A stretch of 64,000 bases of DNA from Spirochaetaceae bacterium. GTDB lineage: Bacteria; Spirochaetota; Spirochaetia; DSM-2461. The stretch spans positions 96,001 through 160,000 of the forward strand of contig JAOPTT010000013.1 of the NCBI GenBank assembly GCA_051531975.1. The letters run 5' to 3'. The position numbers are program-made. Position 1 is the stretch's first letter. Every line of letters begins with the position of its first letter. Below, piece after piece: positions 15,701 to 21,700 of this stretch.

Positions 15701-18700
15701 AATTATTAAAAATTAATAGACTGAGATAAAATATAAAAATAATAAAAAGTAATATGGGCAATATTTTTCTAAATTGTTTTGTATAAATTAGTTTAAATAC
15801 AAGAAATATAGGTAATAGACCTATAATAATTATAAACAAAAAGCCTTTATTAAATAAAAGTGCAGCAAATAGGACTAAAAACATAATTAAAAAGAATATT
15901 GATTGAAAGCTGTTTCTTTTATTAAACATACCTAGAAAAAAACCTAATATGAAGCAAATAAGGTATATTAATATAACTGTTATATGACTGTCGGGTATTT
16001 TATTTTGAATAAATTGAAACCATGTAATGTAAAATGATAGAGGTATAATAATTAAATTAGCAATAAATATGAATAAAACTATAATTGTTATTATAAATTC
16101 AATATATCTATTTTTTATATAAGTATAAAATAAAAAAGATCCCAAAGATATTAGTAAAGAAAATATATATAGGCTACTTATTCTAGAAAAATATACAGCT
16201 GTAATTGCTCCAGCTATAGATAAAAGTATTGTTAAAACATATCTAATTATTTTATACATATAATTTCTACTAACTCCGATAGTTTATTTATCATTTTGGA
16301 CAGTTGTTCTTGCTTTATTGGATCTAAATTTGTTGTAATAATATAAATAGTAAGTTTTTTACTGTTTTTTATATAATCCAAATCAAAGAAAAAGTTAGAT
16401 TCAAAAGTTGTAATTAAAATTATTCTATCTGACTCTTTATAGTTTTGTGTTTTGTAATTAAGTTCAGTCTCATAAACAGTTTGATCAAATTTAATATTAA
16501 TTGAATCCTTATATAACTTCTTAAAATCTGTTTCATTTGTTATTGGCAAACTACATATATTAATCTTAGTTTCTCTGTTGTTTTCAATATTTTTACTTAT
16601 TATTGATAAAGCTGTTTCTATAGATAAGTCATCAGTAGGGCCTAATCTATGGGCAGGAAGAGTAGTACAATCTAAAAAAATATATGTATATTGTCCCTCT
16701 TCTGATAGATACTTTCTTATATATGGTTCTCCTCGGGATGCTAAATGTTTCCACGATATTTGTGACATTTTTGAACCAGGAATATATTTATCAATTGAAT
16801 CAAGATAATCAGTATATTTATTATCCTTAAAAATTGAGTTGTTTTTATTTTCTCCAGAACCATTTTTATCACTATATATATTTTTGTTTATCATAGGATA
16901 AACATAAAAAGTTCTAGGCCAAAATGATAATTTAAACTCAAATATATTCAGTATATCTCTACATACTATATTTTTAATACCTACATCATAAATACCTCTA
17001 TATGGAAGATAAAAATTCGAATAGATATGTTCTGACTCAGTATTTTTAATTTTTGGATTTAAATTATCTAGTTTTATATTATCATTAAATGAAATCTCAA
17101 TAAAACATGGTGTAATTGGTAAATAATTCTCTATGGTTAATTTATATTCTATATTTTGACCTTTCTGTGGGTGCTCTGTAGAAAATTGCTGATAATAATT
17201 TATACTATTTATAGAAGTAATATAGTGTATTAAATTACTTATCAGAATTAGAGTCAAAAATATATAAACAAGCCTAAAATATCCTCCAATATAATTTCCT
17301 AATAGAAAAACTAAAGTCCAAAAAAGAGTATAAAATATGAGATTTTGTATTTTAACTGTTAATTTCAATTGATTCCTACAGGAATAGCAATTTTTTTTAG
17401 TATTTCAGATATTATAAGATTTATAGATTTATTATTTAATATAGCCTCTGATGTAAGTTGAATCTTATGTGGAAAGACTCTTTTTACACTATATATAACA
17501 TCTTCTGGAATCAAATAATCTCTATCTGAAAATATTGCTTTGCTTTGGGAAAATTTAATTAAGTGTTTTAATCCCCTTGTACTTAAACCATATTTGACAT
17601 CTGTATGATTTCTTGTTTTATTTCCAATATTTACTATATATTCAAGAACATCATCACTTATATTTACAGAATGAACATATTTTATCAAACTAGTTATTTC
17701 TGAAATATCTGAAACTTTATTAACATTATCTACAGGCTCAATATTTTTAAAATCTAATAAAATCTTTTTCTCATTTTCAATAGATGGATATCCAGGTTTT
17801 ATTAATATTCCAAATCTATCAATTTGTGATTCTGGCATATCAAAGGTACCTAGATAAAAAGATGGATTTTTTGTAGCAATAACTATGAAAGGATTTGGTA
17901 GGGTAAAACTTTTACCATCAATTGATACTGTTTTTTCTTCCATAGCTTCTAAAAGAGCAGATTGTGTCCGTGGTGAGGCTCTATTTATCTCATCAGCTAG
18001 AATTAGTTCGCTAAAAATAGCACCTTTTTTAAGATTAAATTGTCTTTGTACAGGATCCCATATAGTCATACCGGTTATATCACCTGGTAAGAGATCAGGT
18101 GTAAATTGTATTCGTCCTAGTTCTAATCCCGCAGATTTAGCTAAACATTTAACAAGAGTTGTTTTTCCTACTCCAGAAATATCTTCAATTAAAATATGTA
18201 ACCCAGCAACAAATGCAAGAACTGCATCTTCTATTACAGTAGAATTACCTATAAATCCCTTTGAAGTCTCAATAATTAGTTTTTCAATAATACTTTTCAT
18301 AAATATAATTATATACTAATTCCATAACATGTTGACAAAAAATGATGATTTTAGTACATTAACGATGCAATTTAATGGAGAGGTGTCCGAGTGGCCGATG
18401 GTGACGGTCTTGAAAACCGTTGTGTGTAATAGCACCGAGGGTTCGAATCCCTCCTTCTCCGATATTTAAATTATTTTTATGGAAAGGTGCGAGAGTGGCT
18501 GAACCGGGCTCCCTGCTAAGGAGTTGTACCCGTAAGGGTACCGGGGGTTCGAATCCCCCCCTTTCCGTTTTTTTTTATAACAAACTTTTCGACGAGAAAA
18601 TGTTTGTCAATAATTGATAAAATTGTCGATATTCTTAATGTTTGTCAATAATTGTAAAAATTGTCGACATTCTTTGTGTTTGTCTACATTTGAAAATATA

Positions 18701-21700
18701 GAAATTTTGTAAACTTTTCTTATTTTTATACATGGACAGGTGTCCGAGTGGCCGAAGGAGCACGCTTGGAAAGCGTGTGTATCGCAAGGTACCGAGGGTT
18801 CGAATCCCTCCTTGTCCGGATCCAAGCCTCTTTAACTACATCCAGGAGCTTTAATAATGACTTTCACCTAACTCCGCCAGGACTGGAAGGTAGCAACGGT
18901 AAGTGAAATGTTATTGTTTAAAGTAAGCCTGGGTGTAGCTAAAGAGGTTTTTTTTTAGTAGTATAAATCTATGGCATATGAAGTAACAGCTAATCGAAGA
19001 CGACCCCAACTATTTAAAGACCTTGCAGGACAAGAATTTGTAGTATCTACCCTTACTAGTGCTATCTCATCAAGTAGAATTGCTCATGCATATCTGTTTT
19101 CTGGACCAAGAGGAGTTGGTAAAACATCTTCTGCTAGAATTTTAGCAAAATCTCTTAACTGTAAAGAGGGCCCTACAGCACTTCCTTGTGGTGTTTGTAA
19201 TAACTGTAAAGAAATTACAATTGGTAGTTCTATGGACGTTATAGAGATAGATGGAGCTTCAAATACTAGTGTTAATGATATCAGAGAAATAAAAGATGAA
19301 GTACTTTTTGCTCCTAGTGGATCAAAGTATAAGATTTATATCATAGATGAGGTTCATATGTTATCTAATAGTGCTTTTAATGCACTGTTAAAAACTATAG
19401 AGGAACCACCAGCTTATATAATTTTTATTTTTGCTACTACAGAAATTCACAAAGTTCCAGCAACAATTAGAAGTAGATGCCAGCAATTTAATTTTAGACT
19501 AATTCCTACAGAAACTTTAAAAGAACTTATTATAGAAGCATGTGATGAAATGCGTATTAAATATAGCGATGATGCAATTTATTGGATTGCAAAGGAAGGG
19601 AATGGTTCTTCTAGAGATGCCTATACTCTTTTTGATCAGATTGTATCTTTTTCTGGAGATGAAATTACTTTAGAAAAAATTCGTGAAAAATTGGGACTTG
19701 TTGGCTTAGATAATTTAAATGATTTAGTTGACGCAATGGCAGATAGAGATGCTACCACAGTATTAGATAAATGTGACTATATACTAATTTCAGGGGTTGC
19801 AGTTGAACAATTTATTGTCGATTTAGCAGAATACTTCAGAAATTTACTATTTTTATCCTATGGAATAACAAAAGAATCGTTATTAGGCTGTTCCAGTGAT
19901 AGGTTTTCTAAAAAAGCGATCGATAGTTTTACAGTTATTCAGTTAGAACATGGTGTTGAACTAATACTAAAGCTCTACAAAGATATAAGATACTCTGTTA
20001 ATCCAAGGTTTGAACTTGAACTACTATTAAGCAGACTTTCAACTTTAACAGATTTTATATCAAATAGTGAAATTTTAGATAAGATAAAGATTATTAAAGA
20101 ATCAATCTCTGGTGGAAACTTTACACAAGAACAAACAGTGATGTATGGTTCAAAAATTGAACCTGAAAAAAAAAAAATTATAAATGAAGTTGTAGTTAAA
20201 ACGGAACCAGAATCCGATAATCCCGCAGCACAATTTTTTAATAAATTTAAAACATCATCAAGGTCTAAAACAGAACCAACATCAGAGCCAATACCAGTTC
20301 CTTTAAATAGTAGTATAACAATTCCTGAGACTTCACCTACTATCAAAGAAGAGACATATTCAGAACCAGATCCATTACCTGTCACTTTTGACAAAGTTTC
20401 ATCTGGAGTTAGTGTAGAATCTTTAAAAAAGAATATTATAAGGAAACTTAGAGGTAGTTCTATTACATTAGCATCAACTTTAGAAAAAGCAGAAATATGG
20501 GATAGAGAAGGTTCAAATATTGTTTTAACTTATAAAAACTCATTTGAAGCTGCTTTAGTAGAAAAAGAAAAAAATAAAATTGTAGAAATTTTACGAGAAT
20601 TAGATAGTAGTATAATTAGTATAGTAATAAACAGAGGTGTTAAAGATGTTATAGAAGAGAAAGCCTCTATTAAAGATGATCATATTGAAAAAATATTAAC
20701 AATGTTTCGTGGAGCTATTGTTTAGGAGATTTTATGGATTTTAACCCAGCAGATTTAATGAAAAATATTCAAAGTATGCAAACACAAATGAAAGATGTAC
20801 AAGGAAAACTTAAAACATTAAATGCAACTGGAACATCAGGTGGTGGTCTGGTCAAAATAGAAATAAATGGAGAAATGGAAGTTACAAATGTAACACTTGA
20901 TCCAATTGTTGTTGATTCTAGAGATATCGAAATGTTGCAGGATCTTATAATTGCAGCAATGAATAGTGCTCAGTCAAATATAAAAGATATAATACAGAGT
21001 GAAATGGCTGATAGTACAGGTATTAATATGCCATTTGACCTAAATGGATTTAAATAATGGACTCATTTAATGATTTAGTTAGTTCATTTTCATCACTTCC
21101 ATCTATTGGTAAAAAAAGTGCTTCAAGATTAGCTTATTTTATTTTAAAAAGTGATATTAAAATTGCACAAAAACTTGCCCATGATCTTTTAAATATTAAA
21201 GAACAGATAAAAAACTGTTTAATTTGTGGAACTTATACAGAGAATGATCCGTGTGAAATTTGTTCAGCATTAAATAGAGATAAAGTTATTTGTGTAGTAG
21301 AGCAATCTCAAGATGTTTATATGATCGATTCTACTGGAGAATATAATGGATATTTTCATGTATTAAATGGGGTATTATCGCCATTAAATGGGATAGGTCC
21401 AAAAGAGCTTAGATTGGATGCGCTAGTTGAAAGAGTAAAAAATCACAATATGGAAGAAGTTATCATTGCTACAAATCCAACTATAGAGGGTGATACCACT
21501 GCTCTATATATTGTTAAACTCATCGAAGAGTATAATGTAAAAGTTACTAGAATTGCTTCAGGGATGCCTGTAGGTGGAGATATGGAATATATTGATAAAC
21601 AGACATTAAGTCGATCATTAAGAGGCCGTACAGCTCTATAGCTTACTTAAGATGTAGTCTATTTTATTCTCGACATCCGTTTTTGAGTTCCAAAATTGTG

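What a model noticed while it worked through the whole genome (the two positions that open the first line are those of the whole stretch)
18376..18819. One tRNA-Arg(UCG) for all four CGN codons in a free-living spirochaete without TadA but with CmoAB
The tRNA-Arg(GCG) gene that relatives carry inside the serine-tRNA cluster is gone from its contiguous slot here, leaving tRNA-Arg(UCG) (C5:315060-315135) as the only CGN reader; there is no TadA. The genus therefore reads 13,884 CGN codons (6,330 CGU/CGC) by four-way wobble, plausibly through cmo5U made by its TrhP-CmoAB genes.
Evidence so far: tRNA table (3) and codon counts (122). Slot sequence has no tRNA and relatives' Arg(GCG) finds no extra copy (193). 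4 of 4 other-genus genomes have Arg(GCG) in the cluster (190, 193); near-closed congener G021 (59 tRNA matches) has only UCG for CGN, UAC for Val, UGG for Pro (174, 180); G023 also lacks it in the cluster (195). No TadA over cut-off in 5 of 5 genomes (181). cmoA/cmoB/trhP present (185, 189). Passages of PMC3711424 give only Mycoplasma haemofelis with a lone UCG; PMC6063277 places CmoAB in proteobacteria (186, 187).
(Added by a program. Inside this text positions count along the whole contig: contig position 96,001 is position 1 of the stretch shown here. "Call 12" and the like, gene names such as g00115 and contig names such as C1 are that model's own, and its searches are not shown. The text may have been shortened before it was handed on; [...] marks where a part breaks off. 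The agent that wrote the report below was given it as the finding of a first reader that could run no searches.)

Follow-up and report, generated by a model that had tools for sequence, protein, structure and literature searches.

The report
One tRNA reads four arginine codons
This marine spirochaete genus has lost the tRNA that normally reads the arginine codons CGU and CGC, so one remaining tRNA must read all four CGN codons, a shortcut known from mitochondria and mycoplasmas that we also found in free-living Arcobacteraceae.

Summary
Observation confirmed. The Ser-tRNA cluster (18376-18819) is contiguous and has no tRNA where 24 of 25 loci from other genera carry Arg(GCG). All 4 genomes of the genus show only tRNA-Arg(UCG) for CGN; 29 of 34 other family genomes keep GCG (20 of 20 that are over 90% complete). 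CGU and CGC still mean arginine (6,221 codons; 2,774 of 4,421 ORFs), so four-way wobble follows. Two corrections. (1) It is not unique: a complete Aliarcobacter chromosome (61 tRNAs enumerated) also has UCG alone, and Gly(UCC) alone, and about 76 of 77 Arcobacteraceae with a visible UCG showed no GCG. (2) cmo5U is possible but unshown: CmoB is also in 10 of 11 relatives that keep GCG, the UCG anticodon arm is unchanged, xo5U is classically limited to NYN boxes, and MnmEG is intact. In its favour, both free-living cases carry CmoB, and S. aureus Gly(UCC) has mo5U. Lack of TadA is ordinary for spirochaetes. Lone UCG is in print for Mycoplasma haemofelis and a symbiotic Spiroplasma; my searches found no paper on either free-living case, and the scan's earlier notes had none. 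New member of a known kind.

The parts
18332..18360 (+). sigma-70-like promoter match in front of the tRNA cluster (TTGACA, 17-nt spacer)
   Evidence: consensus match only
18376..18462 (+). tRNA-Ser(UGA)
18480..18568 (+). tRNA-Ser(GCU)
18569..18732 (.). Empty slot where other genera carry tRNA-Arg(GCG), often followed by Ser(CGA). It holds a T-run, a short hairpin element repeated elsewhere in the genome, and three 38-nt repeats; no tRNA remnant
18733..18819 (+). tRNA-Ser(GGA)
18841..18936 (+). bacterial small SRP RNA (ffs), right flank of the cluster
   Evidence: 56.5 bits against a gathering score of 40
18971..20725 (+). dnaX (DNA polymerase III gamma/tau), downstream anchor gene

Best explanation
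SHOWN: the low-GC genus (about 31% GC in these loci, against 40-54% in family relatives) has deleted tRNA-Arg(GCG) from the Ser cluster and lacks Arg(CCG) and Arg(ACG). One gene, tRNA-Arg(UCG), is left for CGU, CGC, CGA and CGG, which still encode Arg. I put this lone-reader part at about 0.93. INFERRED: the tRNA reads all four codons by four-way wobble, helped by the two strong C-G/G-C pairs at codon positions 1-2. Its U34 cannot be the purine-restricted mnm5U/cmnm5U type. My committed guess is that U34 is hydroxylated by the TrhP-like U32 peptidase and carboxymethylated by CmoAB (ho5U/cmo5U), as expected for its lone Val(UAC) and Pro(UGG). The tRNA was probably already four-way competent in the family ancestor, so GCG was redundant and was lost, together with Val(GAC), Pro(GGG) and, in this species, Ala(GGC), as GC content and CGC use fell.
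For: Lone reader. A contig of run X3 also joins Ser(GCU) to Ser(GGA) with 54 letters between (laid at 80% likeness). CGN still Arg: CGU 95 of 131, CGC 5 of 5, CGA 93 of 121, CGG 38 of 47 align to Arg in G012 orthologues; AGA 666 of 898. CGU is used in 30 ribosomal-protein, EF-Tu and RNA polymerase operon genes (46 CGU, 0 CGC, 44 CGA, 9 CGG). C/(U+C) is 0.092 in the CG box, the lowest of eight four-codon boxes. For xo5U: cmoA-cmoB adjacent and over cut-off; TrhP-like gene in G000, G001, G003; the second free-living lineage with lone UCG also has CmoB over cut-off (L171, L163, L154); family f37 has no CmoB (2 of 2) and keeps Arg(GCG) (8 of 8) although Val(GAC) and Pro(GGG) were not found (8 of 8); S. 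aureus Gly(UCC), also U34-C35, carries mo5U instead of mnm5U (PMC13443448, passages).
Against: No modification was measured. xo5U is described for NYN boxes (PMC6599085, PMC11571807; passages), and UCG has C35. CmoB is over cut-off in 11 non-congeners, 10 of which show GCG, and in Helicobacter suis, which keeps GCG (over the NF011650 cut-off, under the TIGR00452 cut-off). So CmoB does not predict the loss. The UCG anticodon arm is letter-for-letter the same in G012 and other relatives that keep GCG. The TrhP-like protein is below the TrhP cut-off. f37 shows lone Val and Pro tRNAs without CmoB, so spirochaete four-way reading does not need cmo5U. The link to CmoB rests on two events only.
Confidence: 0.45

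Rival explanations
1. Lone Arg(UCG) with an unmodified U34: mitochondrial/Mollicute-type superwobble (two-out-of-three reading). The tRNA escapes both MnmEG and the TrhP-CmoAB pathway, and CmoAB serves only the NYN boxes.
For: Precedent: presumed for M. haemofelis (PMC3711424) and Ca. Spiroplasma holothuricola (PMC5861454); measured for L. casei tRNA-Val(UAC) (PMC11571807). The loop has C32 and A38; C32 as an aid to four-way reading is recalled, not from a call. The top stem pair 27-43 is a C-U mismatch, and 4-bp stems are linked to looser wobble for tRNA-Trp (PMC13092985, abstract). f37 has lone Val and Pro without CmoB.
Against: MnmE and MnmG are intact, and mnm5U is the usual mark of Gly(UCC) and Arg(UCU), both U34-C35; in S. 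aureus U34 was always modified (PMC13443448). C32 and the 27-43 mismatch are shared with relatives that keep GCG, so they are not adaptations to the loss.
Confidence: 0.38
2. Lone Arg(UCG) carrying an MnmEG product (cmnm5U or mnm5U) or an undescribed U34 modification, reading CGU and CGC slowly by two-out-of-three pairing.
For: mnmE-mnmG over cut-off. AGA/AGG carry 75% of Arg codons, and CGC is absent from 30 highly expressed genes.
Against: xm5U prevents reading of pyrimidine-ending codons (PMC6599085, passage), yet CGU is the commonest CGN codon, 46 of 99 in highly expressed genes.
Confidence: 0.1
3. An Arg(GCG) or Arg(ACG) gene exists but is unassembled or too divergent to detect.
For: G000 has 29 contigs and misses repeated tRNAs. 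Divergent GCG genes escaped my patterns in G097, G205, G458, G481 and G503. G001 begins and ends in a Val array with an inversion, so it is not cleanly closed.
Against: The slot is contiguous and too short or tRNA-free in G000, G001 and G002. Rfam did recover the divergent GCG genes of G097 and G458 but none in G000 or G001. nhmmer and whole-genome ARAGORN find none in G000. 0 of 4 congeners against 29 of 34 other family genomes.
Confidence: 0.05
4. CGU and CGC have been reassigned, or are read by another tRNA as a different amino acid.
For: None found.
Against: All four CGN codons align to Arg in orthologues as often as AGA does; no tRNA with a fitting anticodon.
Confidence: 0.02

Closest known systems
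Mycoplasma haemofelis lone tRNA-Arg(UCG) (PMC3711424; abstract, introduction and passages read)
   Same: Single UCG reader for all CGN, no TadA, reached by losing the purine-34 tRNA (their step 5b). CGN load is similar: about 20% of Arg codons by their table, 25% here.
   Different: That is a reduced parasite genome with U34 presumed unmodified. This is a 5.46 Mb genome with MnmEG, CmoAB and a TrhP-like gene.
Ca. Spiroplasma holothuricola (PMC5861454; passages) and animal mitochondria (mitochondrial four-way reading stated in PMC11571807, passages)
   Same: One U34 tRNA per four-codon box, Arg included.
   Different: Those lack the U34-modifying genes or use a minimal tRNA set. Here Leu, Ser, Thr and Gly boxes keep their G34 tRNAs.
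Four-way reading by xo5U34 tRNAs in NYN boxes: S. aureus Ala, Pro, Thr, Val with mo5U (PMC13443448); B. subtilis Pro(mo5UGG) (cited in PMC11571807); E. coli TrhP/TrhO-CmoAB pathway (PMC6599085)
   Same: Lone Val(UAC) and Pro(UGG) here fit this pattern, and the enzymes are encoded.
   Different: No paper I saw reports xo5U on tRNA-Arg(UCG); the nearest is S. aureus Gly(UCC) with mo5U.
Lactobacillus casei tRNA-Val(UAC) four-way decoding with unmodified U34 (PMC11571807; abstract and passages)
   Same: Four-way reading in a non-reduced bacterium.
   Different: Val box, and no xo5U genes in that organism.
Arcobacteraceae (found here)
   Same: Free-living, low GC, TadA-less GCG+UCG ancestry, CmoB present, lone Arg(UCG).
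   Different: They also have lone Gly(UCC), use CGN far less (37 of 471 Arg codons in a 60-kb sample of G473, against 25% here), and have a different anticodon loop (U32, G37 or A37, C38).
[quoted passage not shown]
   Same: No ACG, no TadA.
   Different: GCG is gone too, an exception to that published generalisation.

Membership tests
Four-way wobble (superwobble) of a family box by one U34 tRNA | Only one tRNA gene, with T34, for the four-codon box | tested here: met
Four-way wobble (superwobble) of a family box by one U34 tRNA | All four codons are in use and keep one meaning | tested here: met
   (CGC rests on 5 aligned sites)
Four-way wobble (superwobble) of a family box by one U34 tRNA | The tRNA binds or decodes all four codons on the ribosome | not testable with these tools
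   needs A-site binding or ribosome profiling
Mollicute/mitochondrial type (unmodified U34) | U34 unmodified in the mature tRNA | not testable with these tools
   needs mass spectrometry
Mollicute/mitochondrial type (unmodified U34) | Reduced genome lacking xo5U enzymes | tested here: not met
   5.46 Mb; cmoA and cmoB over cut-off
cmo5U-expanded decoding (TrhP/TrhO-CmoA-CmoB) | cmoA and cmoB present and intact | tested here: met
cmo5U-expanded decoding (TrhP/TrhO-CmoA-CmoB) | A U34 hydroxylase (TrhP or TrhO) | tested here: inconclusive
   404-aa U32 peptidase, best hit TrhP, 320.5 bits against a cut-off of 534; TrhO not searched
cmo5U-expanded decoding (TrhP/TrhO-CmoA-CmoB) | Substrate tRNA reads an NYN box (purine at anticodon position 35) | tested here: not met
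   UCG has C35; rule from PMC6599085; exception for mo5U on Gly(UCC) in PMC13443448
cmo5U-expanded decoding (TrhP/TrhO-CmoA-CmoB) | cmo5U or ho5U detected at U34 of tRNA-Arg(UCG) | not testable with these tools
   needs mass spectrometry
Canonical bacterial ICG+CCG system | tRNA-Arg(ACG) and TadA | tested here: not met
   no ACG gene; four deaminases are dCMP-deaminase-like x2, RibD and cytidine deaminase. TadA over cut-off in 0 of 31 genomes, a weak test because four f32 genomes, three of them shown to carry ACG, also scored under the cut-off
Spirochaete GCG+UCG system | tRNA-Arg(GCG) present | tested here: not met
   0 of 4 congeners; 29 of 34 other family genomes

The most novel reading that the evidence does not exclude
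In free-living bacteria with a TadA-less GCG+UCG ancestry, the TrhP-CmoAB pathway has extended from NYN boxes to U34-C35 tRNAs, displacing MnmEG. This puts cmo5U or ho5U on tRNA-Arg(UCG), and in Arcobacteraceae on Gly(UCC), and it let at least two phyla independently drop their G34 readers. It would be the first xo5U-modified arginine tRNA and a third, unrecognised way of reading the CGN box.
Probability: 0.4. Interest if true: 0.62.

Novelty: new member of a known kind. Interest (0 to 1): 0.42.

Why it matters
The CGN box is the textbook exception among four-codon boxes: most bacteria need inosine and TadA, or a GCG+UCG pair, and a lone UCG was described only in reduced Mollicutes and mitochondria. 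Two free-living lineages with a full set of U34-modifying enzymes now show it. That makes one question directly testable in culturable organisms: how a U34-C35 tRNA escapes the restricting MnmEG mark and reads pyrimidine-ending codons. It also offers a natural one-tRNA reader of the whole CGN box for minimal-translation work, and corrects the statement that all spirochaetes have Arg(GCG).

Tried and rejected
1. A second spirochaete family (f56) looked like lone UCG in 8 of 8 genomes. Rejected: G097 has an Arg(GCG) with A32 that my pattern missed. 2. A complete Patescibacteria chromosome (G458) looked the same. Rejected: divergent GCG present. 3. The figure of 102 of 251 Campylobacterota without an A/C/G-CG match is an upper bound: 2 of 5 rechecked (G481, G503) have a GCG with an altered T-arm, while G488, G543 and G637 showed only UCG. 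4. Scattered UCG-only spirochaetes in the 401-genome survey: G205 has GCG; G056, G386, G245 and G314 showed none at 2 mismatches; G308 was not rechecked. These are fragmented assemblies, and GCG-only or CCG-only dropouts were as common, so they are not counted. 5. The C27-U43 mismatch as an adaptation: rejected, shared with relatives that keep GCG; PMC13092985 left this tRNA pair out of its analysis. 7. Laying the possible source run X1 on a relative's cluster showed little depth over the Arg(GCG) anticodon arm (4.8, against 54-63 for Ser pieces), but lack of cover in contigs proves nothing. No RNA holder was listed. 8. A pattern meant to name Campylobacterota with UCG returned unrelated taxa. 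10. Supplements of PMC6063277 could not be opened; its table of tRNA genes in 1,093 genomes may already show lone-UCG genomes.
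Full report
What was checked. The window is contig C13:96001-160000 of a 5.46 Mb, 29-contig genome of about 31% GC, rated 98.5% complete. It is a spirochaete: its Arg(UCG) anticodon arm matches that of a record titled Oceanispirochaeta sp. (L271). The best-holding run is labelled marine metagenome. No call names the genus; Thiospirochaeta is my recalled, untested guess.

The slot. Three Ser tRNAs lie at 18376-18819, followed by SRP RNA and dnaX. 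In 24 of 25 loci from other genera an Arg(GCG) gene lies in this cluster; the exception, G020, has it elsewhere. Here the gap between Ser(GCU) and Ser(GGA) is 164 AT-rich bases with a dispersed hairpin and three 38-nt repeats. It is 33 bases in G001 and 61 in G002. None resembles Arg(GCG) more than shuffles do. A 4,175-nt contig of run X3 also joins the two Ser genes with 54 letters between (laid at 80% likeness).

No copy elsewhere. Whole-genome ARAGORN (43 genes), Rfam (44 over cut-off; 150 of 463 candidates scored) and an nhmmer profile of 29 Arg(GCG) genes find only Arg(UCG) at C5:315060-315135 for CGN. All 59 tRNAs of the two-contig congener G001 were typed: Arg UCG, UCU and CCU, Val UAC only, Pro UGG only. 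A 3-mismatch pattern that recovers the divergent GCG of G097 finds none in G001, G002 or G003. In the whole family, 0 of 4 congeners and 29 of 34 other genomes have GCG; the five misses are 71-90% complete, and 20 of 20 genomes above 90% have it. The tRNAs missing from G000 for assembly reasons are repeats: Gly(UCC) starts at the end of C25, and the rRNA operons bearing Ile and Ala(UGC) are unassembled. Ala(GGC) is different. In G003 it lies between a psp-like gene cluster (named from recall) and thrS, and in G000 about 120 bases with the tRNA are missing from that contiguous place (C14, near 176,930). G34 tRNAs are thus still being lost in this lineage.

The codons still need reading. 4,421 ORFs hold 5,654 CGU, 567 CGC, 5,076 CGA and 2,326 CGG; CGN is 25% of Arg codons, and 2,774 ORFs contain CGU or CGC. 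In 87 orthologue pairs with G012, CGU, CGC, CGA and CGG align to Arg at 73, 100, 77 and 81%, and AGA at 74%, so there is no reassignment. In 30 ribosomal-protein, EF-Tu and RNA polymerase operon genes CGU occurs 46 times and CGC never. The CG box has the lowest C/(U+C) of the eight family boxes (0.092), but Gly (0.106) and Leu (0.122), which keep G34 tRNAs, are close, so this is only suggestive. Four-way reading by the one UCG tRNA follows.

Mechanism. cmoA and cmoB are adjacent (C5:337425-339187) and over their cut-offs. A 404-aa U32 peptidase (C2:361336-362550) has TrhP as best hit but lies under the cut-off. mnmE and mnmG (C4:173794-177011) are over theirs. The four deaminases are not TadA, which is ordinary: loss of inosine in Spirochaetes is noted in PMC6063277 (passages), and there is no ACG tRNA. 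CmoB passed its cut-off in 14 of 70 genomes: three congeners and 11 others, 10 of which show GCG. The UCG anticodon arm, with C32, A37, A38 and a C27-U43 mismatch, is the same in relatives that keep GCG. So neither the enzymes nor the arm changed with the loss; the simplest history is a tRNA that could already read four ways, and a redundant GCG lost as GC fell (31% against 40-54% in these loci). Published xo5U lies on NYN-box tRNAs and xm5U blocks NNY reading (PMC6599085, passages), so Arg(UCG) must avoid the MnmEG mark. It is either unmodified, as presumed in M. haemofelis and measured for L. casei Val (PMC3711424, PMC11571807), or xo5U-modified, as S. aureus Gly(UCC) is (PMC13443448, passages). 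Family f37 (Brachyspira-like, recalled) lacks CmoB in 2 of 2 and lacks Val(GAC) and Pro(GGG) by pattern in 8 of 8, yet keeps Arg(GCG) in 8 of 8. This cuts both ways: four-way reading without CmoB exists in spirochaetes, but the Arg box has not followed there. I put xo5U at 0.45, plain U at 0.38, and another mark at 0.10.

It is not unique. The cmoB search brought Arcobacteraceae loci. In the complete chromosome L171 (titled uncultured Aliarcobacter sp.; G473) all 61 Rfam matches were typed: Arg UCG and UCU only, and Gly UCC, Val UAC, Pro UGG and Ala UGC without G34 partners (150 of 355 candidates scored). Poseidonibacter lekithochrous (L163; G474), G477, G488, G543 and G637 show only UCG at 3 mismatches, while Helicobacter suis shows its GCG. 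Among 121 genomes of that family, 99 gave a match and 150 of 160 rows were listed; by eye about 77 genomes have a tRNA-like UCG and one of them (G735) a GCG, and G655 has GCG. The family-wide figure is pattern-based and such patterns missed divergent GCG genes elsewhere, so only G473 is fully enumerated. CmoB is over cut-off in L171, L163 and L154. Arcobacter hardly uses CGN (37 of 471 Arg codons in 60 kb) but uses GGU heavily (360 of 776 Gly codons). The spirochaete loads its lone UCG about three times more. Within 401 spirochaete genomes no other lineage held up.

What is in print. PMC3711424 (abstract, introduction, passages): lone UCG in M. haemofelis only, among 36 Mollicutes. PMC5861454 (passages): single U34 tRNAs for four-codon boxes except Leu in Ca. 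Spiroplasma holothuricola. PMC4041420 (passages): loss of both G34 and C34 tRNAs at low GC is a known trend; no mention of UCG, Arcobacter or spirochaetes in the main text. PMC8007984 (passages): says all sequenced Spirochaetes have Arg(GCG). PMC3499367 (passages): in plastids the Arg box is the exception, read by ACG. PMC13092985 (abstract, passages) and PMC10454642 (term search) add nothing on lone UCG. Nine library searches listed no paper on a lone Arg(UCG) in free-living bacteria; PMC4607533 was seen as a listing only. The library lacks most subscription papers, and supplements were closed, so tRNA tables such as that of PMC6063277 may already contain these cases. The scan's earlier notes had no lone-UCG case.

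Verdict. A real, genus-wide loss and a sound inference of four-way CGN reading in a large-genome bacterium. The strategy is known, the setting is new, and it has a parallel in Arcobacteraceae that makes it less singular but easier to test. The chemistry at U34 is open. New member of a known kind; interest 0.42.

Noticed in passing
L352-L368 (G473, complete chromosome of L171): Besides lone Arg(UCG), this Arcobacteraceae genome has Gly(UCC) x4 and no Gly(GCC), although GGU is 360 of 776 Gly codons in a 60-kb sample; Ser(GGA), Ala(GGC), Val(GAC) and Pro(GGG) are also absent. A stronger four-way case than the spirochaete's.
   Followed up: partly
G000:C14, near 176,925-176,945: tRNA-Ala(GGC), present beside the psp-like genes in G002 and G003 and at another place in G001, is deleted from its contiguous slot in this genome. 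The three congeners' copies have different anticodon stems.
   Followed up: yes
G000:C14:176837-176890 (minus strand), upstream of thrS at 174710-176656: A 17-codon leader with 8 Thr codons followed by a hairpin and T-run: looks like a threonine-sensing attenuator for thrS; similar sequence lies in G003.
   Followed up: partly
window 18579-18608; also C16:88791-88963, C2:161932-162105, C2:122083, C25:14568: A roughly 27-30 nt imperfect palindrome repeated at about ten places, often just after tRNA genes and sometimes in tandem; REP-like.
   Followed up: partly
f32 genomes G114, G136, G191, G286, G301, G348, G360, G426: These (Leptospira-like, recalled) show only Arg(ACG) for CGN by pattern, and the four f32 genomes tested have no TadA over cut-off: possibly a lone unedited A34 reader, or a divergent TadA.
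   Followed up: no
L132:111-184 (G097): Family f56 has an unusual Arg(GCG) with A32, A37 and G38 in the anticodon loop.
   Followed up: partly
L398-L410 (G458): A complete 0.66 Mb Patescibacteria chromosome has tRNA-Ile(UAU) and only two CAU tRNAs.
   Followed up: no
G776:C13:120585; G794 and G825: Second UCG genes in some Arcobacteraceae; the G776 copy has the body of Arg(UCU) with a UCG anticodon.
   Followed up: no
G001:C1 start and end (L031, L050): The main contig starts and ends in a Val(UAC) array with an inversion and two copies shortened by one base, probably an assembly fold; 'near-closed' should be read with care.
   Followed up: partly
window 14475-18300 (minus strand): Three-gene set of a MoxR-like AAA ATPase, a DUF58-like protein and a transglutaminase-like membrane protein (names recalled from the ORF sequences; the ATPase gave no NCBIfam hit at 1e-20).
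   Followed up: no
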